This document shows positions 1 through 55,681 of a stretch of 64,000 bases of DNA, piece by piece. Position numbers and translations under genes: made by a program. Below the pieces are notes generated by a model. The model did not search any database and was not told the DNA's origin. It worked only from the letters and a program-made list of their open reading frames with translations. Numbering within the stretch: position 1 is the first letter of the stretch; the number at the start of each line of letters is the position of its first letter. Origin of the DNA: Candidatus Saccharimonadales bacterium. GTDB taxonomy: Bacteria; Patescibacteriota; Saccharimonadia; Saccharimonadales; UBA7683. The stretch is taken from the NCBI GenBank assembly GCA_046350615.1, contig JAXMAA010000001.1, positions 268,263 to 332,262 of the forward strand. The letters run 5' to 3'.

Positions 1-1290
1 TTCTTGTTCATATACGCCTATTCGGAGGTTCTTTTCATGTTCAATGGTACCCGAAAAAACAATTGATTGGGGCTTACTACCAGAGGTCGTACTGCGAACC
101 GCCTTCACTAGCGTTGTTTTACCGGCTCCGTTTCTTCCCTTCAACTCCACCCTGCCGTGCACCCGAAGATCAAATGAAACTGGCTGAAATAACGGGGCCT
201 CACTGTAGCCAAGTGCGAGGCTCTCCACCCCTAAGAGCACTCTATCGCTTTTATCACTCCCCGCTTTAGTGCGAACGCGAATATTGCGAGCTTTATGCTC
301 TTGGTAGCTTTCGCTCATCTTAGTACCAAGATCCGCCGCTGATTCTCGGTCAATCCAAACGGTCGGCTTCTCGGTTGCCTCGCTGAGCTGCGCAAGTTCC
401 TTAACGGCACGCTGTTCTTGGCCCTTAAAGCGTTTAATGGTATCAGGATCTCTCGCTTTCTCCTTGAGGCGGCGAAAGCGTACCACGTCAGCTTGCAGGT
501 TCGCAATTTTACGCTGAGCAACCTCGTACTCATTCACCTCGGAGCTAATATTCATCACATTGAGCTTTAAATATGCATCGTAATTTCCTTTAAAACTGTG
601 GGCCTTGCCATCGCGAATTTCAATAATCCGATCGACACTGCGAAGCACATCACGGTCGTGAGTAATAACAACCACCGCCTCTTGAGCAGCGTTTAACCAG
701 GCGACGAATGATGCTTTAGCGACAAAATCCATATGATTGGTTGGCTCGTCTATCAGGGCAATGTCGGCCCGCGAACGCTGGATCTTCACAAGTTCCACCA
801 GACGTTTTTGCCCGCCTGAAAGCTCGCCAATTTTTTTATGAATCACCTCGCTACTCATTTGGTAATCGCTCAGAATCTTCTCGACATCGTTTTCAACATC
901 GTAGTAGCCAAGATCACCGAAACGTTCTAGCGCATCGCTGTAAGTTTGCATTTTATGCGTGCTTTCACTCATATGTTCGGGATAGGTTTCAATGATGTGT
1001 TTCAGTTTTGTATACTCGGGCAAATCCGCCAAAATGTACTCTAAAACATGCGTCTCTTCAAAACCATGATGCTCTTGGCGGCTAAAAACGAGCGATGCGC
1101 CCTTTCGCAGAGCTACGGCCCCATCAAAATCGGTATCTAACCCTGTAATGAGGTTAAATAATGTTGATTTGCCGGTGCCGTTACGCCCAATCAAGCCGAT
1201 TTTTTCACCAGCTTGTATTTTTATCTCTAAATTTTTGTAGAGCTCTTTGGCACCGAAGCCTTTGGATGCCACTGTTATCTGTGCAATCAT
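1..1290 (-). CDS. ABC-F family ATPase (partial; the N-terminal ~430 aa are in the window and the gene runs off the left edge)
   Basis: Reverse-strand translation from ATG (rc of 1288-1290) gives MIAQITVASKGFGAKELYKNLEIKIQAGEKIGLIGRNGTGKSTL. It has Walker A, an LSGGQKRL signature, an ALIDEPTNHMD Walker B, a linker, then a second P-loop GRNGAGKTTL. This is the two-cassette ABC-F architecture. The ORF is absent from the ORF track only because it has no stop inside the window. Confidence 0.85.
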   Translation of the reverse strand, partial: MIAQITVASKGFGAKELYKNLEIKIQAGEKIGLIGRNGTGKSTLFNLITGLDTDFDGAVALRKGASLVFSRQEHHGFEETHVLEYILADLPEYTKLKHIIETYPEHMSESTHKMQTYSDALERFGDLGYYDVENDVEKILSDYQMSSEVIHKKIGELSGGQKRLVELVKIQRSRADIALIDEPTNHMDFVAKASFVAWLNAAQEAVVVITHDRDVLRSVDRIIEIRDGKAHSFKGNYDAYLKLNVMNISSEVNEYEVAQRKIANLQADVVRFRRLKEKARDPDTIKRFKGQEQRAVKELAQLSEATEKPTVWIDRESAADLGTKMSESYQEHKARNIRVRTKAGSDKSDRVLLGVESLALGYSEAPLFQPVSFDLRVHGRVELKGRNGAGKTTLVKAVRSTTSGSKPQSIVFSGTIEHEKNLRIGVYEQE

Positions 1291-16260: not shown

Positions 16261-17142
16261 TTATTGTAGCACAGCAGGGGCGACCTGGCATTTTGGGCAA
16301 ATGTGGGTGCCGCGGCCAGCAACGCGGGTTTTTATGATGGTGGTGCCGCAGCGCTGGCATGGGGTGCCCTCTTTTCTGAAGACGCGGGCGAAGGAGATGT
16401 AACTGCCTTTTTTGCCCTCGGCATTGACGTAATTTTTATCGGTTGAGCCGCCTTTTTCTATCGAGAGCCCAAGAACTGCTCGCAGTTCGGTGTAGAGGTT
16501 GTTAATTTTAGATTTTGGGATGTCTATCACCTTGGTTTCGGGGTGAATCTTGGCCGCCCAAAGACTTTCATCGGCGTAGATGTTGCCTACCCCGGCAATC
16601 ACGGTTTGATCTAAAAGTACTGCTTTAATGCCCGAGTTTTTTCGCCGCAGCAACCTATCTTCAAAAATCGATAATCTAAAATCTGCCTCGAGCGGCTCTG
16701 GGCCCACCTTCTTCATAAAATCAATATTCGGTACTTCAATTGTTGGATATAATCTCACCCAACCAAACTTGCGCTGATCATTGAAAAATAATCTTGCACC
16801 GTTATCGAGGTCAAATATCACCCGGGTAGAGCGATCTGGTAGTTCACCAACCAGCGAATCGTTTGGGTGCCCTGCCCCAAATACAGCCTCTCCCCTATAG
16901 ACAATCTGGCCCGTCATTTTTAAGTGAATGACCAGCGTGTGCTCAGTGGAAAGATCGATTAATAGCAGCTTCGCGCGACGACGAATATCAATTACCGTTG
17001 CGCCAACAAGAAACTCATCTACATCGGCTCGGGCATTTGGAAAGCTTTTTTCGGTATCTGAAGAAACAGCAACGACCTTGTGGCCAATCAATAGCCTCTG
17101 TAAACCGCGTCGAACTGTTTCAACCTCAGGAAGTTCTGGCAT
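16261..17142 (-). CDS. mutM: Formamidopyrimidine-DNA glycosylase
   Basis: MPELPEVETVRRGL N-terminus, an H2TH region and a C-terminal zinc finger CQRCGTTIIKTRVAGRGTHICPKCQ. Confidence 0.95.
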   Translation of the reverse strand: MPELPEVETVRRGLQRLLIGHKVVAVSSDTEKSFPNARADVDEFLVGATVIDIRRRAKLLLIDLSTEHTLVIHLKMTGQIVYRGEAVFGAGHPNDSLVGELPDRSTRVIFDLDNGARLFFNDQRKFGWVRLYPTIEVPNIDFMKKVGPEPLEADFRLSIFEDRLLRRKNSGIKAVLLDQTVIAGVGNIYADESLWAAKIHPETKVIDIPKSKINNLYTELRAVLGLSIEKGGSTDKNYVNAEGKKGSYISFARVFRKEGTPCQRCGTTIIKTRVAGRGTHICPKCQVAPAVLQ

Positions 17143-21935: not shown

Positions 21936-22760
21936 TTATAACTCATCGGCTTCAAGACCAAGCCGAATAGCTGCTGACCGCATCTTACTCAGGGCAGCAT
22001 CTCTATGCCTGCGTATCATTTCACCTGTCAACCCCTCTCTTTCACCTATAGCTCGAAGCGAAGACGGTGCTTCGCCATCTAGCCCAAAAGATGCCACAAC
22101 GATCCGTTCTTGGCGTGGGTCAAGGCCAGCTCTACTCAAGAGCGACCTGGCAACCTCAGTAATTTCAGCCTTTTCGTAGCCCCTGTTAGACTGCGGATCA
22201 GATACAGTATCTAGTAACGACGCATCACCATCACTAATGGGGGAATCGTACGATACAACGCCAAGCGCAGCTTGAACACTGCGGTTGCCCGTTTGGCGAA
22301 TTCTATGAACGGGTACACGGATAAGACTACCTTTTGTGTCAATTGCCCGTCCTACTGCCTGTCGGATCCAGAAGGTAGCATAGGTCGAAAACTTAAAGCC
22401 CCTGCGCCAATCAAACTTCTCCACAGCATGTTCAAGACCAATATTACCCTCTTGTATAAGGTCGATCATCTCGAGTGACCGTTGCTTAGGATATTTTTTT
22501 GCAACACTTACAACTAATCTTAAATTTGCATTGATGAAATGTTTGCGCGCGGCAATCCCCTCAAGAAACATCTGATCATAGGCTTCTCTGTCCTGAATGT
22601 CAAGATCGGGGTCCTGAAGTGTCCGCCACGCATCGCGACCTATTTCAATTTTTTTCGCGAGTATTACTTCCTCATCAGCCGTCAGCAACTCATACCTACC
22701 GATGTCATCAAGATAGGTTCTCAGAGGATCAACAAAATTGGTTTGGTTTTCATGACCCAT
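21936..22760 (-). CDS. Sigma-70 family RNA polymerase sigma factor (alternative, group 2/3-like)
   Basis: Region 2 ([15 protein letters not shown]), region 3, and region 4 with an HTH ([28 protein letters not shown]). The preferred start is ATG 22760 (MGHENQ). Confidence 0.8.
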
Positions 22761-22841
22761 GAAGTACCAGCATAGATGCAGATCAAGCAAGTTGCAACCA
22801 CAAGCGTGTACAGACCGGCATCATCTGTCATAATAAGAGCA

Positions 22842-25683: not shown

Positions 25684-26253
25684 TTACAGACCAAGTGCAG
25701 CAACTGCTTCTTCCAGAAAACTTTCCATATCTTTATCATTATCAAGAACCAAATCGGTTCGAGCCTTGATACCAGCAATGCTAAATTCGCTATTCACTTT
25801 ACCATTTTCGGCTGCTTCGCGCTCTAAAAATTCTTCAAACGTGTTGAGCTTTTCGTTATCTCGTGCACGGCTAATACTTCGTTCGTACCGCAGACGTTCG
25901 GGAGCATCAGTGAATACAATTAGCCCCCCCGCATTCTGCACCACCTCTGCTTCTGCCCATGCGCGAAAACCGCTTACACAAATACCTCCTGGATATTTTT
26001 CCCTATACGAGGCGTACCGCTCAAGCGCAATCTCACTGAGCACTCCCGCTCCGCGCGCCTCCCGTAGTTCGTTCGCAGTTTTGTATAAGATCGGCCGTTC
26101 AATTGAACCGTATTTTTCCTGAGCAAACTCACGAACAATATCGCTCGTCGAGATATGTTTAATCTGATACTTTTCTTCTAAAAATCTCGCGAGACTGTCT
26201 TTGCCGCTCGCAAATGTTCCTGCCAAACCAATAATTTTAGGAGAGGTACTCAT
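25684..26253 (-). CDS. P-loop nucleotide/nucleoside kinase-like protein (CoaE/adenylate-kinase fold)
   Basis: Walker [15 protein letters not shown] lies close to the N-terminus. It is the last gene of the dnaG-rpoD cluster and overlaps the rpoD stop by 17 nt. Confidence 0.55.
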
Positions 26254-27373
26254 AGAGTTTCTTCGCATCTTTATGTTTACGTAGTTTAGCCAAAGCTTTG
26301 GCTTCAATCTGGCGAATACGTTCGCGGGTCACGGCAAACTCATGGCCAACTTCTTCAAGCGTGTGGTTTTTGCCATCTTCTAGCCCAAAACGCATTTTAA
26401 TAATCTTCAGTTCTCGTTCAGAGAGTGCTGATTGTAAAATGCCCTGTACCTGCTCTTTCAAAAGTTGCTCTGTAGCCGCCTCGTCGGGGCTTTTTGTATC
26501 CTCGTCTTCAATAAAATCACCCAGCACAGAATCTTCTTCATCATCACGGACAGCAGCATCAAGCGAATTGACATCTTGCTTAATCTTCATAACGTATTCA
26601 ACCTTTTCCGGTTCCATCTCGAGCTCTTTAGCCAACTCATCAATGGTTGGCTCGCGGTTCAGCTCTTGAGTCATGCGGCGCTGGGTACGGAGTAACTTAT
26701 TGATAGTTTCTACCATGTGCACAGGAATACGAATCACACGGGCTTGATCAGCAATAGCTCGTGTAATAGCCTGACGGATCCACCAGGTAGCGTAGGTAGA
26801 AAATTTAAAGCCTTTTGAAGGATCAAACTTTTCTACGGCACGCAGCAAGCCAGTGTTGCCCTCTTGAATAAGATCTAAGAAATCCAGGCCACGGCCAGAA
26901 TATCTCTTAGCAATCGAGACAACCAGACGCATATTTGCCTCGGCCATTTGATCTTTGGCTCGTTTATCGCCAGACACAACTTTATTTGCCAGTGCCAGCT
27001 CTTCTTCAGCTGTTAGTAGTGGGATCTTACCGATCTCACGCAGATACAAACGCACTGAATCATCAGAGATATCGTCGAGGTAGCTGGTATCCTGCTCGGC
27101 CAAAAGAGCCTCTTCGTCTTCTTCGGTTGTTGCCCAAATGTCATCATCACCAGGCTCATCTTTAGTTGTCACAGCCACCTTTTCGGCCGCAAGCTTGGTA
27201 TAAATTGCCTCTAAGCTATCGTAGAGACCCGATTCTTCCACCGCATCTAGCACATCTTGTTGCTCGAGCATGCCTTGATTTGTGCCTGCCTTTTTTGTCA
27301 GCTGCGCCACAAGTTCAGTCACTTTTGTATCATTATCAGCCTGTTGAGCTGCAGTCAGTTCTTTTTTTGCCAC
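26237..27373 (-). CDS. rpoD: Primary RNA polymerase sigma factor
   Basis: [16 protein letters not shown] (region 1.2), [54 protein letters not shown] (region 2), and regions 3-4 with [24 protein letters not shown]. Confidence 0.92.
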
Positions 27374-27375
27374 AA

Positions 27376-29118
27376 TTAATCCCCTTTTAATAGTTCTTGA
27401 TACTGCTTGAGGAGCTCACCTGCCAAAACGCTATCACCTTTATCTTCAGCATCACGAATGGCGGCCGTCAGCTCATTTTTATCTTTTTCTTTGCTGTGTT
27501 TGCTAATGCGCCGTGCCAGGGCCATTACTTCAGCCATTAAATCGGCTGGGGTCCAACTGGCATATTTTTCCTCGGCGGTTAATAGCAGTATTTTACCATA
27601 GTCCTCATCTGTTTTCAATATTGCGAGCTGCTCAGATGTTAAGCGTTCGTGTTCAGGAAGTTGTTGCAGCACTTGGTAAATCGCTTGACGCTGTTCGCCC
27701 ACTAGCGCTGAAACGGAAAATTGCCTTAAACTATCACGCACCTCCGGAAACTGTGCATTGAGCGCCAAAAAGTCATCTTGATACGAGGTTTGATCGGGTG
27801 CAACAAGCTGCGTATGTGTAGTTTTTTTTGCCCGTACCTTTGGTTGAGTCTGGCGCAGTTTCACCATCAAAGATTGCACCGACACATCAAGTTGCCGGGC
27901 AAGCCGTTTCAGGTGATGCTCCTGCTCAACCGGATCATGCAGACCGTGAATGACAGCCAAGGCCTTAGTTGAAAGATGGCGCTTACCTTCAGCAGTTGTT
28001 GCGTCATGGGCACTCTCGTAACGCTTGAGCGTCCAACTCACTGCATCGGTAGCAGCCTCAATACACTGCCGCCAAAGTGCTGAATCATGCTGAATAAGCT
28101 CATCTGGATCTTTCGCATCACCTGGCAACACCACTACCCGAAGATCAACGCCAACTTCTTGGGCAATACCAATTGCCCGTTCCGTCGCCTTCAAGCCCGC
28201 CGCATCACCATCAAATGCCAGCGTTATATTCATTGTTAAACGACTCAGACTCCTCAGATGATCAGTAGTCATAGCAGTACCCGCAGCCGCCACCACATTC
28301 TTTACACCCGCTTGATGAGAAGCAATCACATCAAGATTGCCCTCCACCAGAACCACTCTGTCTTCAGTACGAATAGCTGGTTTGGCATGATGCAAGCCAA
28401 ACACTTGCCGACCCTTATCGTAGATCGGCGTCTGCGGCGTATTCAAATATTTCGGCCCTGCTGCGGGTCCGTCCTCCAGCACTCTCGAGGTGAAGCCAAC
28501 AATGTTTCCTTGGCCGTCTGCAAGCGGGATCATAATTCTCCCCCGAAACATATCGCCGATCCCGCCACGTCGTCGTGTTGTTAAACCAGCTTTGAGCAGT
28601 TCAGCATCGCTAAAGCCCCTCTTTTTCAAAAACGCATACAGTGCCGTACCATCCTCAGGTGAATAACCCAGCTGCCAGGTGCGAATTGTTTCAACGGTAA
28701 AACCACGAGCGTTCTTTATGTAGTCTAACGCTTTGGGTGTACGCGAAAGGCAGAGATGATAAAACTGCGCTGCCGCGATGTGCGCCGCCAAAAGCCGCTT
28801 TTTGAGTGCCGCAAGCGAGCCATCGCCTTTTTTTTGGTATTGACTGAGGTCAACATTAGCCTTGCGCGCCAGAATCTCCAGCGATTCGCGAAATTCCACA
28901 CCCTCAACTTCCATAATAAAGCTGAACATATCGCCGCCCTTATTAGATGAAAAATCATGCCAAATCTGCTTTTCAGGGCTAACCATAAAGCTCGGTGTCT
29001 TCTCGCTACTAAAGGGCGAGAGCGCTTTAAAATTGCGCCCGGCACGCTTCAGCTCAAGGTAATCACTAATCACCTCCTCAATACTCAGCCGTTGCTTAAT
29101 CTCGTCTTTAGCGTCCAT
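27376..29118 (-). CDS. dnaG: DNA primase with a degenerate (cysteine-less) zinc-binding domain
   Basis: [33 protein letters not shown] aligns to E. coli [36 protein letters not shown] with all four zinc ligands replaced. The Toprim domain ([13 protein letters not shown] ... DGDAAG) is intact. It is immediately upstream of rpoD, the conserved dnaG-rpoD order. Confidence 0.9.
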
Positions 29119-29880: not shown

Positions 29881-30252
29881 CTATTCATTAGCCAAAAGTG
29901 CCTGCTCGTCTTTCGTTAAACCCTCAACCACTAAGTGGTACGAAAGATCAACAAGGCTCAGAAGATATTCTTGCTCCATCTCGCCACTGACAATAATTGT
30001 GTTCCAGAGTTTCTTATTCAGATGATATCCCGGCATCACCGTCGTATATTGCTCGCGCAGCTTCTCAGCCAAGACTGGATCACACTTTAAGCTAACCTGC
30101 ACAGGCTTCTTGCCTTCTTGAATTAAAGCAAACATCTTGGCCGTTTTTTTCGAGCCCACTTTATACACTACAACACCATCACCGAACGGATAATCAAGCC
30201 AACTCCCTGGCTTGCTCAAAATATATTCCTCTAGTTCCTTATGTGACAACAT
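29881..30252 (-). CDS. MmcQ/YjbR family DNA-binding protein
   Basis: LSKPGSWLDYPFGDGVVVYKVGSKKTAKMFALI matches the YjbR/MmcQ pattern. Confidence 0.65.
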   Translation of the reverse strand: MLSHKELEEYILSKPGSWLDYPFGDGVVVYKVGSKKTAKMFALIQEGKKPVQVSLKCDPVLAEKLREQYTTVMPGYHLNKKLWNTIIVSGEMEQEYLLSLVDLSYHLVVEGLTKDEQALLANE

Positions 30253-30889
30253 CGTTCATCTCCTTAACGATACCGATGACATCCGACAGCGTATCAATAA
30301 GATAATCAGCACCAGCCTCTTTCAACATTTCAGAGGTTCCGAACCCATGAGTGATGCCTATTGTAGCAAACAGCTTCGCCGATCGAGCAGCTTGTATATC
30401 AGCTGGTAAGTCGCCTACCATAATTGCCCGCCCTGCCGCCACACCTAACCGAGCTAGCGCCGTCAAAACTGGCTCAGGATGTGGCTTGTGGTGCCTAGTG
30501 TCATTGCCGCCAACAATGACAGAGAACTGATCGAGAATGCCCGCCTGCGCGAGAAGCTCCTCGCTCGATGTCGCAGTGGTGACAAGGCCAATCAAAAGGC
30601 CGCTTTTTACAAGCTCGTCGACCACCTTTCCGACCCCCTCATACAGATGCACGTCTTCTTTCAGTTCACTAAACTTTTGATAGAATTTTTCACTTAAATC
30701 ATCTCTCGAGATATGAGGCACAAATCTATCATGTACTGCATTAATATGATGAATGTGTGGGCGCAGATCATCTTGACTTACTTCAACACCATACGAATTA
30801 AGAGCGTGTACGTTAGCTGCCCATAGAGCATCTCGACTATCCCTTAAAACACCGTCGAAATCAAAAAAAACCGCCTCAATCTTAACCAT
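30239..30889 (-). CDS. HAD-superfamily phosphatase (phosphoglycolate-phosphatase-like)
   Basis: FFDFDGVL motif I, and later VGDLPADIQAARSA motif IV. Confidence 0.75.
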   Translation of the reverse strand: MVKIEAVFFDFDGVLRDSRDALWAANVHALNSYGVEVSQDDLRPHIHHINAVHDRFVPHISRDDLSEKFYQKFSELKEDVHLYEGVGKVVDELVKSGLLIGLVTTATSSEELLAQAGILDQFSVIVGGNDTRHHKPHPEPVLTALARLGVAAGRAIMVGDLPADIQAARSAKLFATIGITHGFGTSEMLKEAGADYLIDTLSDVIGIVKEMNDVVT

Positions 30890-31440
30890 TACTGTTTTAG
30901 CTTCTCTAAGTAAAATTGTAGCTCTACAATTGAGGCTTGAATGTCGTCAAAGGCGCGATGAATATCTTTCTTTGCATACTCACCTCTTCCTTGACCCTGC
31001 ATCAGCACTTTTAGGCTCGATACATCAAGCATCCGATAGTGAAGTTTCAGGTCCAATCCTGGCCACCACTTTTCAATAAACTTTTTATCGTTATGGATCG
31101 AGTTACCAGCCAAAACCGCTGGCTCGTTACCAAAATGTTCTTCCACAAAACGTATCAGATCTTGCTCAACCTGTTCAGCACTTGGCGCATTCGGTACATT
31201 TTTTAAGAAGTTATCACGATTTTCCGGATAATCCTTCCACCACACGTTTGCCTGCATACGCTCTGCAAGCACCTTCTTTGGCTGACCAACTAAAGATTCG
31301 TAGCTACCAAGTGTTTTAAAATCAAAATCAGTCACCTCCGCAGCTATTTCAATAATTACATCTTTTTGCGGATCCAGGCCTGTCATCTCTAGGTCTATCC
31401 AGAGAAGCTTGGTTGGTATAATCTTTTTCAAATTCGTCAT
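30889..31440 (-). CDS. orn: Oligoribonuclease (DEDDh 3'-5' exonuclease)
   Basis: LLWIDLEMTGLDPQKDVIIEIAAEVTD, AGNSIHNDKKFI and HYRMLDVSSLK are the Exo I/II/III motifs. Confidence 0.9.
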   Translation of the reverse strand: MTNLKKIIPTKLLWIDLEMTGLDPQKDVIIEIAAEVTDFDFKTLGSYESLVGQPKKVLAERMQANVWWKDYPENRDNFLKNVPNAPSAEQVEQDLIRFVEEHFGNEPAVLAGNSIHNDKKFIEKWWPGLDLKLHYRMLDVSSLKVLMQGQGRGEYAKKDIHRAFDDIQASIVELQFYLEKLKQ

Positions 31441-31496: not shown

Positions 31497-32750
31497 TTAC
31501 CGTTTGTCTTGTAGGAGCTCCTGAAGTGCCAGAATTGTGGCAGCATCTTTGAATGATATGTGCTCTTTTTTGGCAAGTTCTAACATACGCTGTGTAGCTG
31601 AACTCAAAATTTCATTCAATTTTGTATTCACCTTGCGCTCACTCCAAGCTTCGCCTGCCAAATTCTGAAGCCACTCTAAATAACTCACCACCACACCACC
31701 GGCATTAGAAACCACATCTGGTAAAATTTCTCTTCCTCTTTGCAAAAAATTCTCGTGAGCTGCATCTGTTACCGGTCCATTTGCGAGTTCTAAAATTATT
31801 TTGGCCTGCACTGTACTAACATTGTCTTCAACCACTACATCACCAAGCGCGGCGAGTACTAAAATATCAACCGGCAACGAGAGCACTGCATCTCGCTCTA
31901 AAAATTCAGTGTGCGTATTATCAAGATCCTCTATCAAGCCATGCTTGTGCCCGTTATATTCTTCTAGGCTTAAGCCATCGCGGTTGTGAGTAAAGTTTTT
32001 AATAACCAACGTTCGCTTTGAGTCCGAAACAGCCACTACACGTACGCCAAGCTTTTCTTCAGCCAGTTTTGCAAACCAAAAACCAACATTCCCAACTCCT
32101 TGCACGGCAACCGTAATTGTTTTTGGATCGACTTGTTTGCTCTTAAGATACTCTCTGAGCACAATCATACCTCCGCGACCCGTAGCTTGCTCTCGCCCCA
32201 AACTTCCGCCCTTACCAACAGTTTTTCCCGTAAATGCAGCTTTGCTCGTATCGCCAGTATGCTTTTCAAACTCATCAGCCATCCAATCTAAAACTTCAGA
32301 GGGAGTGCCCACATCTGGGCCAGGGACATCTTTATGTGGACCAATATGCGGCAGCAAATGCTGAGCGTATGCGCGTGACACTGCTTCAATATGAGCCTGG
32401 TCATGCTCGCGCGGATCAAACGCGACCCCACCCTTGCCACCACCCATCGGAATACCGGCCGCCGCCGTTTTCAAGCTCATTAAAAGCGCCAAGGCGCGCA
32501 CTTCCTCTTCATCCACCGCTCCGTGAAACCGAATACCACCCTTATATGGCCCGCGCTTACTACTGTGTTGCACACGGTACGCTCTATGTGTTTTACCATT
32601 CACAGAAAGCTCAAAACTATGCACCATCTCCGGAGTCAAGAGCTGTGCAGTTTGCGCCTCACTGAGCTTTAGTCGCTGCGCTGCCCGCTTTACCGTTGCC
32701 TCAGCCGACCTAAGCATACTTCCCATAGTTACTCCTTGTGTGTTAAACAA
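31497..32750 (-). CDS. Glu/Leu/Phe/Val-family (glutamate) dehydrogenase
   Basis: KGGIRFHGAVDEEEV...GIPMGGGKGGV and the Rossmann motif GVGNVGF. Confidence 0.9.
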   Translation of the reverse strand: MFNTQGVTMGSMLRSAEATVKRAAQRLKLSEAQTAQLLTPEMVHSFELSVNGKTHRAYRVQHSSKRGPYKGGIRFHGAVDEEEVRALALLMSLKTAAAGIPMGGGKGGVAFDPREHDQAHIEAVSRAYAQHLLPHIGPHKDVPGPDVGTPSEVLDWMADEFEKHTGDTSKAAFTGKTVGKGGSLGREQATGRGGMIVLREYLKSKQVDPKTITVAVQGVGNVGFWFAKLAEEKLGVRVVAVSDSKRTLVIKNFTHNRDGLSLEEYNGHKHGLIEDLDNTHTEFLERDAVLSLPVDILVLAALGDVVVEDNVSTVQAKIILELANGPVTDAAHENFLQRGREILPDVVSNAGGVVVSYLEWLQNLAGEAWSERKVNTKLNEILSSATQRMLELAKKEHISFKDAATILALQELLQDKR

Positions 32751-33184
32751 ACCGAGTTAATACAATAATGTTTACCAGTTGGCGTCATAGGATCATCAAA
32801 CAAATGCCCGAGGTGCGAGCCACAGTTTGCGCAGACCACCTCAGTTCGTACCATCCCATTTGAGGCATCTGGCCTCAGCTCAACCGCACCATCCTCGGCC
32901 GCAGCCTCAAAACTCGGCCAACCCACCAATCCAGGCATTTCAGAAAGATGCTGCTGCTTAGCACGAAACAGATGCGCCCCGCAGGCTGCGCAGTAATATT
33001 CTCCCGATTCCCGCGGTTGCACAAACTCGCCAGAAAATGGCATCTCCGTCCCCTTTTTACGCAAAACCCTATACTGCTCCTCCGTCAACTGATCTCGCCA
33101 TTCATTATCGGTTTTCTTAATCATCACGACCCCATCGCCAACGAGCTGGCTCGCCTTTTTTATAACAGAGGGAGACCAACGCAA
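32729..33184 (-). CDS. msrB: Peptide-methionine (R)-S-oxide reductase
   Basis: Two CxxC zinc motifs (CAACGAHLF and CANCGSHLGHLFDD) and the RxEVxC catalytic region. Confidence 0.9.
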   Translation of the reverse strand: MRWSPSVIKKASQLVGDGVVMIKKTDNEWRDQLTEEQYRVLRKKGTEMPFSGEFVQPRESGEYYCAACGAHLFRAKQQHLSEMPGLVGWPSFEAAAEDGAVELRPDASNGMVRTEVVCANCGSHLGHLFDDPMTPTGKHYCINSVCLTHKE

Positions 33185-35831: not shown

Positions 35832-37679
35832 CTACATACCGCTTAATAAGTACTTGAGAACTTCCTGGGCTTCAGGTGTCCACTCAGCAGATCCAGGCGC
35901 ACTAATTCCGTAGTCACCGGCAGTTCGCGCATAGCTACCCATTGGGCGGATAATATTATCGGGACCAAGCTGCGTCTCAAGTGTTTTGTAAAGATCGTGA
36001 GCATGCTGACCGCTAATTGAGTGTCCGTTAGCCTCAAAGAACTGTCGGAGCTCTCGCTCGTAGCCACTTCCTGGCTCTACCTCAAACTGTAAACCTTTTG
36101 GTGCCTCTGGGGTTGGTGGCTTTGGTGCCTCTGGGGTTGGTTGTTTCGGAGGTGTAGGCTCTTTAGGGACATCTTTAGGAGTGTCTGGGGCAGGGTCTTT
36201 ACGCAAAGCCTCTTTCAGCTTGAATGCGCCCTTCCCGGCCATAGCACCAAGTGCTGTTGCGGTACGCACACGCTTACGGTTACGCATCATCTCTTTATCG
36301 GTACTAGCCTCGGTTGCGCTAGTTATATCCTCAACCGAGCCCTTACCATCAATTGCATGCGCCGCTTGAATGTCTGCTGCTTTTACAGCACGGTCTTCGA
36401 GTGACTGCTCTGCTGCCACAGTTAAGCCATTTGCCTTGTTGACACCGTTGGCACGACGAGCTGTTACGTGCTTAGCCATCCCGAACCCTGCGGCACCACC
36501 AGTAACGTAAGCTGCTGTTGCGCCAGCGAAGATGCCTCCGGTTAAGCCTGTTACGGCACCAGCTGCTAATACTACACCAGCTTTTTTAAGTTTGCCCTTA
36601 AAGCCTTGTTGGCTAACCCACCAGTTTACAAACTTATTGGTTGATTTACCCTGCGCCTGACGCTGGTGAAGGATTTCATCCTCCAGCTTGCCATCTTGAG
36701 CAATATTACCAATCAGACTCAGCTGGCGCACAACGTCCTCTTCCCAGCCAACACGCTGCAGTTCAGCCGCTGTTGCTTCAGAAAGGGCTGTATACGCCTC
36801 CTCGTACTCTTGTTTGGCTTGTTCGGTTTCAGCATTAAAAGCACGTGTTGAACTCAACTTGTTGGCAAGACCTTGCACTGGCTTGCTAGCCTTAACAGTG
36901 TTCCACTTCTCTACTATCTTGGTAACGCCGGGAATCTTAGCAAGAATACCACCAACTTGGGTATCTGGGCGGAAGAACCGGCCGAGGTATGATTTACGGC
37001 TTTTGGCAGTCATCTCGGCATAACGGCTACGAGCAACGTCAAGGCGCTCAATCATTGCTGGATCTACTTCGGGCAGCTGCACCAACTCACCCGGCTTTTC
37101 TACCGGTACAAGTGCTCCAGGCTTTGGAGCAAGTTCAATCTCGCTACCGGGTTCTACTGGTCCATCGTACTCTGGGTGCCAATCTGAGGGACGATCTTCG
37201 TCGTTTTCCTCTACATGAACAATGCTGGTGCTACCTTCATTCTCGCGCTGATCGTCACCACTGGTAGAAGTGGTTGCTGCTTCGGTATCGAAAGTCCAGG
37301 GCTCGTGGGCCATAGCTCCAATAGGTAGATAGTCTGGGTCCTCCGGATCTGCGTTCTCAGAACGGGTTAAGTAATCATCACCATATTCACCATCGCGTAC
37401 CGGACGAATGTTTAAGTCATCACGTCCGCCATTAAAGAGGTTAGCACCCTCAATACTATATGTAGCACTCGAGTCTTCCTGTTGTTCACTTTGGTCTGAA
37501 ATGCCAGCCGATTTATATTCGGCAAGACTATCCCGAATTTTATCCTGATGTGCGGCTATGACATCCATGTTCTGTTGAGACAGAAATTTGCCATCTGGTC
37601 GGTGACCTTTCCCGCTTTTGTCAACAGTTACAATGTCTGCTATTTCCTGATTACTTGATTGTGGTGCTTTTTCACTCAT
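35832..37679 (-). CDS. Large acidic hypothetical protein (615 aa) with a Pro/Thr/Lys-rich (PTPPKQPTPEAPKPPTPEAPK) C-proximal segment
   Basis: Long ORF with coding-like composition. It has a central hydrophobic/Gly-rich segment (VVLAAGAVTGLTGGIFAGATAAYVTGGAAGFGMA). Its promoter is found on the minus strand at 37725-37753. Confidence 0.6.
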   Translation of the reverse strand: MSEKAPQSSNQEIADIVTVDKSGKGHRPDGKFLSQQNMDVIAAHQDKIRDSLAEYKSAGISDQSEQQEDSSATYSIEGANLFNGGRDDLNIRPVRDGEYGDDYLTRSENADPEDPDYLPIGAMAHEPWTFDTEAATTSTSGDDQRENEGSTSIVHVEENDEDRPSDWHPEYDGPVEPGSEIELAPKPGALVPVEKPGELVQLPEVDPAMIERLDVARSRYAEMTAKSRKSYLGRFFRPDTQVGGILAKIPGVTKIVEKWNTVKASKPVQGLANKLSSTRAFNAETEQAKQEYEEAYTALSEATAAELQRVGWEEDVVRQLSLIGNIAQDGKLEDEILHQRQAQGKSTNKFVNWWVSQQGFKGKLKKAGVVLAAGAVTGLTGGIFAGATAAYVTGGAAGFGMAKHVTARRANGVNKANGLTVAAEQSLEDRAVKAADIQAAHAIDGKGSVEDITSATEASTDKEMMRNRKRVRTATALGAMAGKGAFKLKEALRKDPAPDTPKDVPKEPTPPKQPTPEAPKPPTPEAPKGLQFEVEPGSGYERELRQFFEANGHSISGQHAHDLYKTLETQLGPDNIIRPMGSYARTAGDYGISAPGSAEWTPEAQEVLKYLLSGM

Positions 37680-37885: not shown

Positions 37886-38440
37886 AAATAATATTTTGTG
37901 ATAAACTGTATTCATCATCGTTTTGCGGCAACTGTGAGGTGGAGAACTCTCAGCTAACCAGCAAAGGATAGCGATGAGTACTTATAACAAGAGACGTACA
38001 GGCTATCAGAGTAATCTGATGGTTTTTGGCGCCTTAAAGTAACTCATAGGTAAAACGAGATCGCCTATAAAGTGGTCATGTGAGGTACATTAACAAGCTA
38101 CGGTACATAACTTTTGTTATGTATTAGTCAAATCATTACAGTGTATAAACCTGTTGCAACAAAGGCTTCGGGGCAGAGTTGTGTTTAGCTGAATTAACTT
38201 TTGATCCGCCGCAAACGAACCAAAGGCTAATTCGCCGCTAAGCACTACTCTGCTCCTGAGGCAGTTCGGCCTTACAGCTTGAACACTTTAGTTGCAGCAG
38301 ACCGTTTACTTTGTGCGCTTATAGTTACTATAAGATGCACTCGAACACACTAACGCAACAAGCGCATTGATAGCCTTCCAGTTGGGCAGGAGGTATGCCG
38401 CCAAGTACATAATTATGAAAAAATTGTGTGCTGCGCGGCA
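37886..38440 (+). ncRNA. ORF-free ~0.55-kb region with its own promoter-like element; candidate structured ncRNA, not classified
   Basis: TTGACA(taaataatattttgtga)TAAACT at 37886-37914 is followed by ~500 nt that lack ORFs of 60 aa or more on either strand and contain many local stem-loops (e.g. ggcttcggggc; gcgccttaaag...). No motif of tmRNA, RNase P, SRP or 6S RNA could be confirmed by eye. Confidence 0.25.
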
Positions 38441-38468
38441 TATCCCCAACCCGACCCAGGAGGTCATT

Positions 38469-39332
38469 ATGCCACGTCCCACCACGCACGATGACCTCGT
38501 GCGCAAGAGCCGAGGGATCACCTCGGCCCACAAGGGCTTGGCCGGTCACACGGCCGAGCTCACCGAGCTCAAGACCCGGCTGCGGCAGGCGCAGGACCGC
38601 ATCGCCCAGATGCAGCCCACCGTCAGCCACGTGCCGGGTCACCAGCGCGGGCTGATCCGCCTCAGCGGGCGGATCAAGGCCCTCGACGCCCAGCTCAACG
38701 AGCTGCTGCACCGCGAGGCCACCGGCACCACCGGTGGCAAGGAGCCCAGCCCCACGCTGACGGCTGCCTGGCAGAAGGAGTTCGACCGCCTCCAGCAGGA
38801 GGTGCGCGGCTACTTCACGGACCTCGACAGCCAGATGGCTGCGATCCGCGATCGGCTCGACGAGCACGACCTCAAGTTCGCCAACCACGGCGAGCGGATC
38901 GAGGCCGTGGAGGTGCAGAGCAACGCGAACGCCACGGCGATCGCCAGCCTGCGCAGCCGCGTCGACGAGCGGGTCCACCCCGCGCTCTGGATCGCCTCCT
39001 TCGTGGGGGCCATCTTGGGCGGCCTGTTCATGGCCGTCTACGACTGGAGCAGGGTCATCAAGGTCAGCGAGACCACGACGACGGTCGGTAACCCGGCCCT
39101 CGACTCGTGGTTCGGCATCACGCTGGGCGCCCTCGTGGGGTTCTTCGTGGTGTTGGCGATCGGCATGCTCTTCAGCGCCCTCGCGGGCAACGATGAGCAG
39201 GAGGTGACCACCGCTTCGGCGGCGTCCGCCTCGAGCCGCATCGCGATGCGTGATGTGGCAGCTCCGCCGACGGCGGTGCAGCCGGTGATCCCGCAGCCAG
39301 CTTCGGTCGACCGGCCTCAGCCGGTCGCCTAG
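38469..39332 (+). CDS. Hypothetical coiled-coil membrane protein (island gene 1)
   Basis: ATG 38469 lies 5 nt after AGGAGG. The N-terminal ~170 aa are Gln/Leu/Arg-rich coiled-coil-like. There are two transmembrane helices (ALWIASFVGAILGGLFMAVYDW and WFGITLGALVGFFVVLAIGMLF) and an Ala/Pro-rich tail. Confidence 0.7.
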   Translation: MPRPTTHDDLVRKSRGITSAHKGLAGHTAELTELKTRLRQAQDRIAQMQPTVSHVPGHQRGLIRLSGRIKALDAQLNELLHREATGTTGGKEPSPTLTAAWQKEFDRLQQEVRGYFTDLDSQMAAIRDRLDEHDLKFANHGERIEAVEVQSNANATAIASLRSRVDERVHPALWIASFVGAILGGLFMAVYDWSRVIKVSETTTTVGNPALDSWFGITLGALVGFFVVLAIGMLFSALAGNDEQEVTTASAASASSRIAMRDVAAPPTAVQPVIPQPASVDRPQPVA

Positions 39333-39470
39333 CTGGCGCTGCCGAGCTCCCCATGAGGAGAAGGTTATGTGCACCTGGGTACTCGGGATACTAAATCCTG
39401 CCCAAAGCGCCGGGGGCAACAGCTACCCACAGTCCAACACGCTTCAACCACAATAGGAGGTAGCTCTCAA

Positions 39471-40529
39471 ATGAGCAGGCGTACCGCAAGTGCAGCGGGG
39501 GCGGTGGTGGCTTTGGCCCTACTGCTCCTGGCTGGGCTCATCATCACGGTGAGTTCCAGCAATGCCAAGGGCGACGGGGGTCCCCCCATCGACCCGAAGG
39601 CGAAGTGCGGAACCAAGACCGGTTTCCTGGCGGACTACGCCACTGGAAACCGGTTCGGTCCCGCGGTGACCGAGACCAACGTCGACAAGGTCAAGGAGCA
39701 GCTCCACACGGAGCGGTGTCTTGACCCGATGAAGGTCGTAGCTCACCTCGAGTACCAGGCCCGTGCCTACTCCTCTCCGGAGGAGCGGGCCGAGCACACG
39801 CGTCGGCTGCGGGACACCCCCAACGCCCGCGTGAGCGCGATCGCCAAGCTCGAGGCTCGGGAGCGTTCGGCCGTCAAGGTCGAGATCACCGAGATGAGCA
39901 ACGAGTACCAGACCATGTACGCGGTCAGCAAGGGGCACGACGTTCCGTACGTCTACGCCACCACCGCCGACCGTCCGCGGTTCAAGGTGCTCAAGTTCAG
40001 CTACTCGGACGGGTCGTGGGACGCGTACAAGCTGGATTGCGATTTCCAGCCCGTCGCGACCCGGTTCCCCGGGCTGCCGCAGTCGCCACCGCCTCCGGGC
40101 ACGACGACCACGGTTCCCGGGACCACCCCAGGCACCACTCCCGGAACGACCCCGGGCACTACGCCCGGTACGGTTCCTCCAGGCACGGTGCCGCCGGGGG
40201 TCACCACGACCACCAGGCCGGGGGTCACCACGACCACCAGGCCGGGTAGTACCACGACCACGACGGTCCCCCGGTGCACCCACAAGTGCTCCGAGGACAG
40301 CCCTGTGAGTTCGAACCCGAACGATCCCAACGAGAACGTTCGTCCGAACGGCACGGAGCCGCAGCGGCCGCCGACGACGGCTCCGGCTCCGCCGACGACC
40401 GTGGCCCCGCCGACGACGGTTGCGCCTCCCGCGCCCCCGCCGCCGACGACGGCTCCGGCTCCGCCGCCTGACGACAGCTGTGTCGACCCTCATGAGGTCG
40501 GCCTCTGCGAAAGGGCAAGGGCAGCCTAG
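39471..40529 (+). CDS. Hypothetical secreted/anchored protein with Thr/Pro-rich linkers (island gene 2)
   Basis: ATG 39471 lies 10 nt after AGGAGG. It has an N-terminal signal/anchor (AAGAVVALALLLLAGLIITVSS), a ~200-aa Cys-containing domain, (TTPG)n and PPTTVAPP repeats and a Cys-containing C-terminus. Confidence 0.7.
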   Translation: MSRRTASAAGAVVALALLLLAGLIITVSSSNAKGDGGPPIDPKAKCGTKTGFLADYATGNRFGPAVTETNVDKVKEQLHTERCLDPMKVVAHLEYQARAYSSPEERAEHTRRLRDTPNARVSAIAKLEARERSAVKVEITEMSNEYQTMYAVSKGHDVPYVYATTADRPRFKVLKFSYSDGSWDAYKLDCDFQPVATRFPGLPQSPPPPGTTTTVPGTTPGTTPGTTPGTTPGTVPPGTVPPGVTTTTRPGVTTTTRPGSTTTTTVPRCTHKCSEDSPVSSNPNDPNENVRPNGTEPQRPPTTAPAPPTTVAPPTTVAPPAPPPPTTAPAPPPDDSCVDPHEVGLCERARAA

Positions 40530-40673
40530 ACCGCGTGGCGGTCATCGGTACTTCACGGTACCGGCTGCGTGTAACACATAAGTTACTCGTAAGTTAACAA
40601 GGCCGTGAACAGGGTATGGGGAACCCGTGATGTCAGATCACAAAACCTTCGCGTTAGTTCGAATAGTAGACGG

Positions 40674-45435: not shown

Positions 45436-45530
45436 TGGCGGAGGAGGGGAGATTCGAACTCCCGCGCCGGATTTCTCCAACCTAACGATTTAGCAAACCG
45501 TCCCCTTCAGCCACTTGGGTACTCCTCCGC
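45436..45530 (-). tRNA. tRNA-Ser (anticodon GCU) with long variable arm; CCA encoded
   Basis: rc: GCGGAGGAGTACCCAAGTGGCTGAAGGGGACGGTTTGCTAAATCGTTAGGTTGGAGAAATCCGGCGCGGGAGTTCGAATCTCCCCTCCTCCGCCA. Anticodon stem ACGGT/ATCGT, loop TTGCTAA, T-arm GGGAGTTCGAATCTCCC. Confidence 0.9.
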
Positions 45531-55589: not shown

Positions 55590-55681
55590 TGGCGGAGAGA
55601 GCGGGATTCGAACCCGCGATTGCGTTGCCACAATACACGCTTTCCAAGCGTGCTCCTTCAACCACTCGGACACCTCTCCGC
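55590..55681 (-). tRNA. tRNA-Ser (anticodon GGA) with long variable arm; CCA encoded
   Basis: rc: GCGGAGAGGTGTCCGAGTGGTTGAAGGAGCACGCTTGGAAAGCGTGTATTGTGGCAACGCAATCGCGGGTTCGAATCCCGCTCTCTCCGCCA. Anticodon loop TTGGAAA, T-arm CGGGTTCGAATCCCG. Confidence 0.9.

What the first reader, a model, noticed from the sequence alone, without database searches (positions are those of the whole stretch)
27376..29118. DnaG primase lacking all four zinc ligands of the zinc-binding domain
The alignment to the canonical CPFHxEKTPSFxV...HCFGCG block is unambiguous ([13 protein letters not shown]...HDFSSN), yet Cys/His become L/S, S, D and S.

The zinc-binding domain normally recognises the template initiation trinucleotide. 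A zinc-less version implies altered template recognition or dependence on a partner. The downstream Toprim and helicase-interaction regions look normal, and the dnaG-rpoD synteny is preserved.
Basis: partly seen in the sequence, partly recalled or inferred. Interest (0 to 1): 0.55.

Follow-up and report, generated by a model that had tools for sequence, protein, structure and literature searches.

The report
Zinc-free primase zinc-ribbon in Saccharibacteria
The replicative DNA primase of this Saccharibacteria (TM7) genome has replaced all four zinc-holding residues of its DNA-reading "zinc ribbon" with Ser/Ser/Asp/Ser, and this zinc-free version is strongly conserved across the group and arose repeatedly in related tiny bacteria, so it is a working metal-free variant of a domain thought always to need zinc.

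Summary
ORF 27376-29118 (-) is a full-length DnaG followed by rpoD. Three independent alignments place S34, S37, D55 and S58 at the Cys-His-Cys-Cys zinc positions. The domain has no Cys and only one His.

It is not a decaying domain:
- All 120 closest protein clusters and all 80 best species genomes, nearly all labelled Saccharibacteria and including oral TM7, carry S-x-D-[S/A/T] (one has S-T-C-T).
- The former ribbon is the most conserved part of the protein: 90% identity versus 74% for Toprim.
- Ser at the signature positions is encoded by both codon families.
- The catalytic acidic residues are intact.

Only five positions change systematically: the four ligands plus the Gly between ligands 3 and 4, which becomes Ser. 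The template-specificity pair (I52/W53) is unchanged.

A small set of close relatives with the same gene neighbourhood still has CHCC, and S-x-C-S intermediates exist. The same signature also appears to have arisen independently in Parcubacteria-type CPR lineages.

My best reading is a zinc-independent but still folded and functional ZBD. This is inferred, not shown. I found no nearby zinc-ribbon partner and no published description. Verdict: a new variant of a known kind, of moderately high interest.

The parts
27376..29118 (-). dnaG coding sequence (580 aa plus stop codon), the replicative primase
   Evidence: ORF. Pfam domain set. PDB DnaG matches, 2au3 at E 6e-58. A 100% identical protein is named 'DNA primase [Candidatus Saccharimonadales bacterium]'.
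28834..29118 (-). N-terminal 'zinc-binding' domain homolog (aa 1-95) with no Cys and one His
   Evidence: PF01807 matches aa 5-93. 1d0q matches at E 1e-24. The model superposes on 1d0q at TM 0.84 and 1.2 A rmsd with 50% identity.
28912..29037 (-). Former zinc-ribbon core (aa 28-69), the most conserved segment of the protein
   Evidence: Across 81 homologs it shows 90% mean identity and 21 of 42 invariant columns, versus 74% for Toprim.
29017..29019 (-). Codon TCG = S34, at zinc-ligand position 1 (E. coli C40)
   Evidence: Ser in 100% of zinc-less forms. Encoded by both AGY and TCN codons across species.
29008..29010 (-). Codon AGT = S37, at ligand position 2 (E. coli H43); this position is variable (T/S/N/G/K/Q/A)
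28954..28956 (-). Codon GAT = D55, at ligand position 3 (E. coli C61)
   Evidence: Asp in 79 of 80 species loci, with Cys kept in the S-x-C intermediates.
28948..28950 (-). Codon TCA = S57, the co-varying knuckle residue
   Evidence: Gly in 96% of CHCC forms and Ser in 98-100% of zinc-less forms. All six Ser codons are used across species.
28945..28947 (-). Codon TCT = S58, at ligand position 4 (E. coli C64)
   Evidence: S, T or A in zinc-less forms.
27844..28764 (-). RNA-polymerase domain (aa 119-425), including Toprim (aa 251-345, nt 28084-28368), with intact acidic catalytic residues
   Evidence: Pfam hits. Invariant E259, D263, D303, D305, D337 and D339. The model matches DnaG catalytic cores at TM 0.80-0.88.
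27379..27786 (-). C-terminal helical domain (aa 445-580), the presumed helicase-binding domain
   Evidence: pLDDT 82-92. Foldseek matches the DnaB N-terminal domain fold (2r5u_A, 2r6d_A) at probability 0.99-1.0. There is no Pfam hit for this part.
26237..27373 (-). rpoD (primary sigma-70), 2 nt downstream of dnaG, the conserved operon partner
   Evidence: Downstream on the same strand in 66 related loci.
29881..30252 (-). YjbR-family gene upstream of dnaG; context only, not a zinc protein
   Evidence: PF04237 at E 4.7e-23. Upstream on the same strand in 63 of 80 loci, and also in the zinc-keeping relatives.

Best explanation
This is the genuine, active replicative primase of a Saccharibacteria (TM7) bacterium. 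Its N-terminal template-reading domain keeps the DnaG zinc-ribbon fold and job but no longer uses zinc.

The Zn(Cys3His) centre that ties the two beta-hairpin 'knuckles' together has been replaced by a polar side-chain cluster. S34 comes from the first knuckle. D55, S57 and S58 come from the second, with the Asp carboxylate most likely accepting hydrogen bonds from the Ser hydroxyls and knuckle backbone amides. The second ligand position has become free to vary.

Template recognition, the hand-off to the Toprim active site and the DnaB interaction proceed as in canonical DnaG.

Shown here:
- All four ligands are absent.
- The fold-determining and specificity residues are retained.
- The catalytic residues are intact.
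- Purifying selection is strong.
- The change spreads across the clade.
- CHCC relatives and S-x-C-S intermediates exist.
- The same signature recurs convergently.

Inferred, not shown:
- The domain folds without metal.
- The Ser/Asp cluster is what stabilises it.
- Priming specificity is unchanged.
- The selective driver is freedom from zinc supply and/or from thiol-reactive stress on a Zn-thiolate site in an essential replication enzyme.
For: Register and ligand loss.

Clade-wide distribution:
- 120 of 120 closest 90%-identity clusters are S-[S/T/N/G]-D-[S/T].
- All 80 best GTDB species loci are zinc-less. They are nearly all labelled Saccharibacteria or Saccharimonadales and include Nanosynbacter TM7-087, Nanogingivalaceae and Nanosyncoccaceae.
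- About 72 of the 150 best 50%-identity representatives lack the ligands.

Selection:
- Residues 28-69 are the most conserved segment, at 90% identity with 21 of 42 columns invariant, versus 74% for Toprim.
- Ser at positions 34, 57 and 58 is encoded by both the AGY and TCN families across species, and Asp by both GAT and GAC.

Catalysis is intact: the Toprim acidic residues and the KY motif are invariant, and the RPD model matches solved DnaG cores.

The substitution set is minimal and specific. Only the four ligand columns plus Gly57-to-Ser differ systematically between 77 CHCC and 72 zinc-less representatives. P35, F36, E39, T41, S43, W53, F56, G61, G62, D63, F65 and F67 are unchanged.

Fold compatibility: the AF2 model with a mixed MSA has pLDDT 92-97 over the ribbon and five strands. 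It superposes on 1d0q at TM 0.84, 1.2 A and 50% identity.

Evolutionary series:
- CHCC proteins P0204, P0169, P0288 and P0293 are 44-47% identical to zinc-less proteins outside the ZBD, versus about 30% to other CHCC proteins.
- They sit in the same MsrB...orn-YjbR-dnaG-rpoD-sigma-polA neighbourhood.
- Their flanking genes are as similar to the window's as those of typical zinc-less Saccharibacteria.
- S-x-C-S/T intermediates occur in the clade (P0131, L060).

Convergence: zinc-less proteins labelled Moranbacteria, Nomurabacteria or Patescibacteria, and singletons such as P0183, have CHCC nearest neighbours both in the masked ZBD and in the rest of the protein.

The change is protein-specific. 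Fpg keeps its zinc finger (PF06827). MsrB has a SelR-domain hit and an intact CxxC...C pair.

Precedents and rationale:
- E. coli Topo I D8/D9 zinc-ribbon-like domains lost their Cys but keep ssDNA binding (PMC9369019).
- DnaG is listed among the zinc metalloproteins targeted by NO in Salmonella (PMC6094482 abstract).
- The window proteome is Cys-poor, at 0.57% Cys.
Against: - There is no experimental metal analysis or activity data for any of these proteins.
- With an MSA of zinc-less sequences only, AlphaFold2 left residues 22-62 unfolded (pLDDT 32-41, no strands) while modelling the rest at 82-97. The confident ribbon model appeared only after CHCC relatives were added to the MSA, so it is homology-driven and not an independent test of metal-free stability.
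- From my own knowledge of the T7 gp4 and E. coli primase literature (for example Kusakabe et al. 1999, listed as ref 26 of PMC5737085), Cys-to-Ser substitutions in canonical primase zinc motifs abolish template-directed priming. Real compensation is therefore required, and I identified only one candidate compensatory change (G57S).
- The proposed selective driver is weakly supported, because other zinc sites in the same genome are kept.
Confidence: 0.6

Rival explanations
1. The site still binds a metal, but a 'hard' one (Mg2+, Ca2+, Mn2+ or Fe2+) instead of zinc. The ligands would be the D55 carboxylate, the hydroxyls of S34, S57 and S58, and backbone carbonyls.
For: - Asp at ligand position 3 is invariant in the main clade, and Ser at positions 1 and 4 is nearly invariant.
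- The replacement residues are all oxygen donors rather than hydrophobic fillers.
- The same O-donor set arose convergently.
Against: - Position 2 varies freely, including Gly, Ala and Lys.
- Position 4 can be Ala.
- A whole sister set keeps Cys instead of Asp at position 3 alongside the same Ser residues.
- One carboxylate plus hydroxyls makes a weak, non-selective site.
- None of this rival was tested directly.
Confidence: 0.13
2. Without zinc the ribbon region is not stably folded on its own. It behaves as a conditionally ordered segment that folds only on ssDNA, on the RNA-polymerase domain, or on a DnaB-bound neighbouring primase. Priming would then be regulated differently.
For: - AF2 with a zinc-less-only MSA gives pLDDT 32-41 and no secondary structure for residues 22-62, while the rest of the protein is confident.
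- Small zinc ribbons have little hydrophobic core (general knowledge).
Against: - The low confidence can be explained by near-invariance of this segment in that MSA, which leaves no covariation signal. The region folds confidently once diverse relatives are included.
- Every core hydrophobic and turn residue of the canonical fold is retained.
- The sequence is 50% identical to a solved ZBD.
- Extreme conservation fits a defined structure at least as well as it fits disorder.
Confidence: 0.15
3. The ZBD has been repurposed. Template-triplet recognition is lost or altered, and the domain is kept for another role, such as an inter-subunit or helicase contact. This may involve a separate partner protein.
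For: - The zinc site is considered essential for sequence-specific initiation in studied primases (PMC5737085; PMC8928506).
- A YjbR-family putative DNA-binding gene is conserved just upstream in the same orientation.
Against: - The specificity pair I52/W53 and the whole DNA-facing sheet sequence are the same as in zinc-bearing relatives.
- The YjbR gene is equally present next to the CHCC versions, so it does not correlate with zinc loss.
- No Cys-rich neighbour recurs.
Confidence: 0.1
4. The finding is an artefact or a decaying gene. Possible causes would be a misalignment, a sequencing or assembly error, or a degenerating domain in a primase being replaced by another enzyme, as in metazoan TWINKLE.
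For: Metazoan TWINKLE shows that DnaG-type ZBDs can lose their cysteines when primase function is lost (PMC5737085).
Against: - Hundreds of independent assemblies show the same state.
- The register is confirmed three ways.
- The segment is the most conserved in the protein.
- The catalytic residues are intact, unlike in TWINKLE.
- No second primase lies in the 64-kb window. The only weak Toprim-like hit was rejected.
Confidence: 0.01

Closest known systems
Canonical bacterial DnaG primase (E. coli; B. stearothermophilus ZBD 1d0q; Aquifex 2au3)
   Same: - Same three-domain architecture: ZBD, then RPD with Toprim, then a DnaB-NTD-like C-terminal domain.
- Same dnaG-rpoD operon.
- 50% identity to the 1d0q ZBD, with a predicted 1.2 A superposition.
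- Catalytic acidic residues and the specificity pair are conserved.
   Different: All four Cys-His-Cys-Cys zinc ligands are replaced by S, S/T/x, D and S, and the intervening Gly is replaced by Ser. There is no Cys anywhere in the domain.
Zinc-ribbon-like domains D8/D9 of E. coli topoisomerase I (PF08272) and the Cys-free Topo_C_Rpt of mycobacterial Topo I
   Same: These are zinc ribbons in a DNA-replication or topology enzyme that lost their Zn-binding cysteines during evolution, yet keep the fold and the ssDNA-binding mode (PMC9369019). This is the best mechanistic analogy.
   Different: - They belong to a different protein family.
- They occur in tandem arrays where other repeats may still bind zinc.
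- They have no role in sequence-specific initiation.
- They do not share the S...D-F-S-S signature seen here.
Metazoan TWINKLE N-terminal primase-like region
   Same: It is a DnaG/T7-gp4-type ZBD homolog that lost its metal-coordinating cysteines (PMC5737085). It gives a weak structural hit to the window model (7t8c).
   Different: TWINKLE also lost the RPD catalytic residues and its primase activity. Here the catalytic residues are invariant and the ZBD is the most conserved segment.
Zinc-free (C-) paralogs of zinc-ribbon ribosomal proteins, and GluRS with a zinc-less pZBD
   Same: These are a general precedent that structural Zn(Cys)4 sites can be replaced by metal-free versions that keep their function. 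The GluRS case is PMC4381286 (abstract). The ribosomal C+/C- paralogs are from my own knowledge (Makarova et al. 2001).
   Different: The C- ribosomal proteins are usually extra paralogs switched on under zinc starvation. Here the zinc-free protein is the single, constitutive, essential copy.

Membership tests
Bacterial DnaG primase | N-terminal domain homologous to the DnaG zinc ribbon (PF01807) | tested here: met
   PF01807 at E 1.3e-27 over aa 5-93. 1d0q at E 1e-24. Model versus 1d0q gives TM 0.84.
Bacterial DnaG primase | CHC2 zinc ligands (Cys-x2-His ... Cys-x2-Cys) | tested here: not met
   S34, S37, D55 and S58 occupy the ligand positions. The domain has no Cys and only one His, H54, which is not at a ligand position.
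Bacterial DnaG primase | RNA-polymerase domain with Toprim acidic residues (ExxxD, DxD, DxD) | tested here: met
   PF08275 and the Toprim families hit. E259/D263, D303/D305 and D337/D339 are invariant in 81 homologs. The fold matches DnaG cores at TM 0.80-0.88.
[quoted passage not shown]
   No Pfam hit covers aa 445-580. The confident helical model matches the DnaB NTD (2r5u_A, 2r6d_A) at probability 0.99-1.0, but with E values of 0.3-0.5. Binding itself was not testable.
Bacterial DnaG primase | dnaG-rpoD operon context | tested here: met
   rpoD starts 2 nt after the dnaG stop codon. The same arrangement holds in 66 related loci.
Bacterial DnaG primase | Template-directed RNA primer synthesis | not testable with these tools
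   Requires enzyme assays.
Inactivated primase-like domain (metazoan TWINKLE type) | Loss of ZBD metal ligands together with loss of RPD catalytic residues | tested here: not met
   The ligands are lost but the catalytic residues are fully conserved. The TWINKLE description is from PMC5737085.
Zinc-ribbon-like (metal-free) domains, as in Topo I D8/D9 | Clear homology to a zinc ribbon, all metal ligands absent, fold retained | tested here: inconclusive
   Homology and ligand loss are met. Fold retention is only predicted, and the two predictions conflict: low confidence and high confidence.
Zinc-ribbon-like (metal-free) domains, as in Topo I D8/D9 | Retained ssDNA binding | not testable with these tools
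   The DNA-facing and specificity residues are conserved, but binding was not measured.

The most novel reading that the evidence does not exclude
CPR/Patescibacteria have repeatedly converted the primase zinc ribbon into a metal-free ribbon using one preferred five-residue code: C to S, H to any residue, C to D, G to S, C to S/T.

Saccharibacteria fixed this code early. They now run chromosome replication with a primase that is immune to zinc starvation and to thiol-reactive stress (NO, ROS) on the Zn-thiolate site. If the code is portable, it would be a recipe for making zinc-independent zinc ribbons. It would also show that zinc is not intrinsically required for DnaG template recognition.
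Probability: 0.4. Interest if true: 0.72.

Novelty: new variant of a known kind. Interest (0 to 1): 0.62.

Why it matters
The DnaG zinc site is treated as an invariant, essential feature of bacterial primases. The Pfam family is literally named 'CHC2 zinc finger', and PMC8928506 describes the ZBD as highly conserved with C, H, C and C ligands.

A large and medically relevant bacterial group, TM7/Saccharibacteria including human oral species, replicates with a primase that cannot bind zinc in the canonical way. This gives a natural experiment on what the metal actually contributes: structure only, or also DNA recognition. Close zinc-bearing relatives and single-Cys intermediates are available as controls.

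It also bears on metal economy and stress resistance in ultra-small epibiotic bacteria. It warns that DnaG-ZBD-directed inhibitors or zinc-ejecting agents would miss these organisms. And it offers a compact substitution set, testable by protein engineering, for turning a zinc ribbon into a metal-free one.

Tried and rejected
1. Separate zinc-ribbon partner near dnaG. I scanned all window ORFs for CxxC/H...CxxC/H pairs. The nearest real one is MsrB, 3.6 kb away. None recurs next to dnaG in 80 loci. Rejected.

2. Second primase or Toprim protein. tblastn gave a weak hit (E 0.04) in the 615-aa ORF at 35832-37679. It has no Pfam or PHROG family, and hhalign gives only 13% probability over 27 residues. 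Rejected.

3. YjbR-family gene as a compensating partner. It is conserved upstream, but it is equally present beside the zinc-bearing versions. It does not correlate with zinc loss.

4. Genome-wide zinc avoidance. Rejected, because Fpg keeps its zinc finger and MsrB keeps intact Cys pairs. The proteome is nevertheless Cys-poor.

5. Domain transfer of a zinc-less ZBD between lineages. Masked-ZBD nearest neighbours agree with nearest neighbours over the rest of the protein, which favours convergence.

6. Taxon names for the unnamed clades. Three cluster look-ups returned few names. The zinc-keeping sister clade remains unlabelled and was placed only by synteny and flanking-gene identity.

7. NJ tree of the non-ZBD region. 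It is star-like and its deep nodes are unreliable. I used it only together with the identity matrices.

8. AF2 with a zinc-less-only MSA. It produced no usable ZBD model. No coordinates were exposed, so side-chain geometry could not be examined.

9. Literature searches for a prior description found none. The library is incomplete, so absence is not proof.
Full report
**1. What is at the coordinates**

ORF 27376-29118 on the minus strand encodes 580 aa from the first possible start codon, an ATG. Pfam finds the complete DnaG domain set:
- Zn_ribbon_DnaG at aa 5-93, E 1.3e-27
- DNAG_N at aa 120-246
- the Toprim families at aa 254-342
- DnaB_bind at aa 363-414

The best PDB sequence matches are DnaG primases. 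They include Aquifex 2au3 (E 6e-58, aa 5-356), several catalytic cores, and the B. stearothermophilus ZBD 1d0q (E 1e-24). A sigma-70 with regions 1.2, 2, 3 and 4 begins 2 nt after the dnaG stop codon. An identical protein in the public collection is named 'DNA primase [Candidatus Saccharimonadales bacterium]'. The window therefore comes from a Saccharibacteria (TM7, Patescibacteria/CPR) genome.

**2.

Three independent methods fix the alignment register:
- the HMMER alignment to 2au3 and the equal-length match to 1d0q (window 5-95 against 1d0q 11-101)
- MAFFT alignments with E. coli DnaG
- the structural superposition

All three put S34, S37, D55 and S58 at the Cys-His-Cys-Cys ligand positions. 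The protein's only cysteines are C123 and C352, and the only His in aa 1-100 is H54, which is not at a ligand position. No alternative Cys/His site is possible. The codons are TCG, AGT, GAT and TCT, and nothing suggests recoding.

**3. It is clade-wide and under selection**

All 120 closest 90%-identity clusters, at 53-100% identity, have S-[S/T/N/G]-D-[S/T].

One of the two search patterns can also match zinc-bearing forms, so this total is not a count of zinc-less genomes. The best 80 loci, which I inspected, are all zinc-less: 79 are S-x-D-[S/A/T] and one is S-T-C-T. Nearly all are labelled Saccharibacteria, Saccharimonadales or Saccharimonadia. They include Candidatus Nanosynbacter sp. TM7-087, Nanogingivalaceae and Nanosyncoccaceae.

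Within 81 aligned homologs, the former ribbon (aa 28-69) is the most conserved part of the protein. It shows 90% mean identity to the query and 21 of 42 invariant columns. The comparison values are 74% for Toprim, 73% for the N-terminal RPD subdomain and 53% for the C-terminal domain.

Across the 80 species, Ser at positions 34, 57 and 58 is encoded by both the AGY and TCN codon families, and Asp55 by both GAT and GAC. This fits long-term selection for the amino acid itself. The catalytic residues E259/D263, D303/D305 and D337/D339 and the K223-Y224 motif are invariant. This is an active-looking essential enzyme, not a relic.

**4. What exactly changed**

I compared 77 CHCC, 12 S-x-C and 60 S-x-D proteins among the 150 best 50%-identity representatives from an exhaustive search. 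The only systematic differences fall at five positions:
- Ligand 1: Cys to Ser, 100%.
- Ligand 2: His to T, S, N, K, G or other residues.
- Ligand 3: Cys to Asp, or Cys retained.
- The Gly between ligands 3 and 4: 96% Gly in CHCC, 98-100% Ser in zinc-less forms.
- Ligand 4: Cys to S, T or A.

All other core residues are unchanged: P35, F36, E39, K40, T41, P42, S43, F44, V46, S47, P48, W53, H54, F56, G61, G62, D63, F65 and F67.

The two residues reported to determine the initiation triplet are B. stearothermophilus I58/F59 (PMC8928506). Here they are I52/W53, the same 'QIW' as in most zinc-bearing CPR relatives. This argues against a wholesale change in template recognition.

**5. Evolutionary path**

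A small set of CHCC proteins groups with the zinc-less Saccharibacteria proteins: P0204, P0169, P0286-P0294 and P0298.
- Over the non-ZBD region, P0204 and P0169 are 41-47% identical to their nearest neighbours, which are each other and zinc-less Saccharibacteria-type proteins, versus about 30% to other CHCC proteins.
- Their masked-ZBD nearest neighbours are also zinc-less Saccharibacteria proteins.
- Two of them, P0288 on a 650-kb contig and P0293, lie in the same neighbourhood as the window: MsrB ... orn - YjbR - (small opposite-strand gene) - dnaG - rpoD - sigma - polA.
- Their flanking RpoD, PolA, Orn and YjbR are as similar to the window's as those of typical zinc-less Saccharibacteria. 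RpoD is 69% against a median of 75%. PolA is 51-52% against a median of 51%.

The ligand state is therefore polymorphic within, or at the base of, this lineage. CHCC is most parsimoniously the ancestral state. Intermediates that keep only the third Cys occur in the same clade: P0131 (S-T-C-S) and L060 (S-T-C-T), the latter on a complete 1.26-Mb Saccharibacteria chromosome.

Separately, a clade of mostly S-x-C-[S/T] proteins and several singletons have CHCC proteins as nearest relatives, or group only with each other. This holds both in the masked ZBD and in the rest of the protein. Some of these carry the source labels Patescibacteria, Nomurabacteria or Moranbacteria. Examples of the singletons are P0183 (S-N-D-S) and P0219 (S-K-D-T). 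This points to convergent origin of the same signature rather than domain transfer. The NJ tree is star-like, so the exact number of independent events is not established.

**6. Structure**

With an MSA of 81 zinc-less sequences, AlphaFold2 modelled the protein at mean pLDDT 81.5. It left residues 22-62, exactly the former ribbon, at pLDDT 32-41 with no strands.

With a 30-sequence N-terminal MSA mixing 12 CHCC and 17 zinc-less relatives, the domain came out at pLDDT 89 overall and 92-97 across the ribbon. It has five strands flanked by helices. It superposes on 1d0q at TM 0.84 and 1.2 A with 50% identity, and on 2au3 at TM 0.81.

The sequence is therefore fully compatible with the canonical fold. 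The confident model borrows information from zinc-bearing homologs, so it is not proof of metal-free stability.

In the full-length model, the RPD matches solved DnaG cores at TM 0.80-0.88. The C-terminal domain matches the DnaB N-terminal-domain fold. By established knowledge, that is the fold of the DnaG helicase-binding domain.

**7. Context checks**

- The genome is not zinc-free. Fpg keeps its zinc finger (PF06827). MsrB has a SelR-domain hit and an intact CxxC...C pair.
- The window proteome is Cys-poor, at 0.57% Cys, and 15 of 44 genes have no Cys.
- No Cys-rich ORF recurs next to dnaG.
- The conserved upstream YjbR-family gene is also present beside the CHCC versions.
- There is no second primase in the window. 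A weak Toprim-like hit in ORF 35832-37679 was rejected.

**8. Mechanism and rivals**

I judge it most likely (about 0.6) that the ZBD is a zinc-independent, folded and functional ribbon. In this reading a polar S34/D55/S57/S58 cluster replaces the Zn(Cys3His) cross-link between the two knuckles, and priming proceeds as in canonical DnaG.

The rivals are:
- a hard-metal site (about 0.13), weakened by the free variation at position 2, Ala at position 4 and the Cys-retaining variants
- conditional folding on DNA or a partner (about 0.15), supported only
- repurposing or a changed specificity with a partner (about 0.1)
- an artefact or decay (about 0.01)

A plausible but untested selective rationale is independence from zinc supply and protection from thiol-reactive stress. 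DnaG is among the zinc metalloproteins reported as NO targets in Salmonella (PMC6094482 abstract). Similar arguments were made for Cys-free topoisomerase I domains (PMC9369019).

**9. Comparison with known systems and novelty**

The protein is a DnaG by every tested criterion except the defining CHC2 ligands.
- The closest mechanistic analogues are the zinc-ribbon-like D8/D9 domains of E. coli Topo I and the Cys-free Topo_C_Rpt domains, which lost zinc but keep ssDNA binding (PMC9369019).
- It differs from metazoan TWINKLE, which lost the ZBD cysteines together with its catalytic residues and activity (PMC5737085).
- It differs from the zinc-free ribosomal-protein paralogs, which are conditional extra copies (my own knowledge).

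Six full-text searches found no description of a zinc-less DnaG in Saccharibacteria, Patescibacteria or elsewhere. The library is incomplete.

I classify this as a new variant of a known kind. It would surprise primase specialists and is directly testable, though the general phenomenon of zinc loss from zinc ribbons has precedent. Interest: 0.62.

Noticed in passing
window 38000-40600: A compositionally foreign block with GC 0.62 against a background of about 0.46. It carries a 321-aa ORF (38367-39332, +) with weak XhlA/hemolysin-like similarity (phrog_1193 at 3e-7; Pfam PF10779 below its cut-off) and TM segments. It also carries a 386-aa ORF (39369-40529, +) with Pro/Thr-rich repeats and no family. 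This may be a horizontal acquisition from a high-GC organism or its phage.
   Followed up: partly
window 35832-37679 (-): A 615-aa ORF with no Pfam or PHROG family. A weak tblastn similarity to the DnaG Toprim region (E 0.04) was not supported by hhalign (13% probability). Its function is unknown.
   Followed up: yes
window 29881-30252 (-) and 30889-31440 (-); loci L001-L082: The gene order orn (RNase_T) - YjbR-family (PF04237) - dnaG - rpoD is conserved in 63-64 of 80 Saccharibacteria loci. It is also conserved in the zinc-keeping relatives L081 and L082, where a baeRF-family gene lies between YjbR and dnaG.
   Followed up: partly
window 21936-22790 (-): A second, shorter sigma-70 family gene (regions 1.2, 2 and 4) lies beside polA. 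A similar gene is found downstream of dnaG-rpoD in 65 of 80 related loci. Part of that tblastn count may be cross-matching to rpoD, given about 35% identity.
   Followed up: no
window, 44 confident genes: The proteome is Cys-poor: 0.57% Cys, and 15 of 44 genes have none. The zinc finger of Fpg (16261-17142) and the Cys pairs of MsrB (32729-33184) are nevertheless retained.
   Followed up: partly
window 60219-60812 (-): A 197-aa ORF with an N-terminal CPDCG...CTKC pair has only a sub-threshold DUF3797 hit. It may be a zinc-ribbon protein of unknown function. It lies 31 kb from dnaG and is not linked to it.
   Followed up: no
proteins P0167 and P0252 (representative search): Among otherwise canonical primase ZBDs, one representative has Cys-His-Cys-His and one has Cys-His-Arg-Cys. 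Further ligand variants therefore exist outside the main zinc-less clades.
   Followed up: no
locus L027: A zinc-less, Saccharibacteria-type dnaG locus sits in a MAG labelled 'Candidatus Dormiibacterota'. The likely cause is a mis-binned contig or a mislabelled MAG.
   Followed up: no
window 40883-42841 (+): A 652-aa predicted surface protein with DUF11/DUF7507 and PKD domains, an N-terminal signal-like segment and a C-terminal TM anchor. It lies directly after the GC-rich block.
   Followed up: no
window 45439-45528 (-) and 55593-55679 (-): Two long (87-90 nt) tRNA genes are the only Rfam matches in the window. There is no rRNA or other known RNA family.
   Followed up: no
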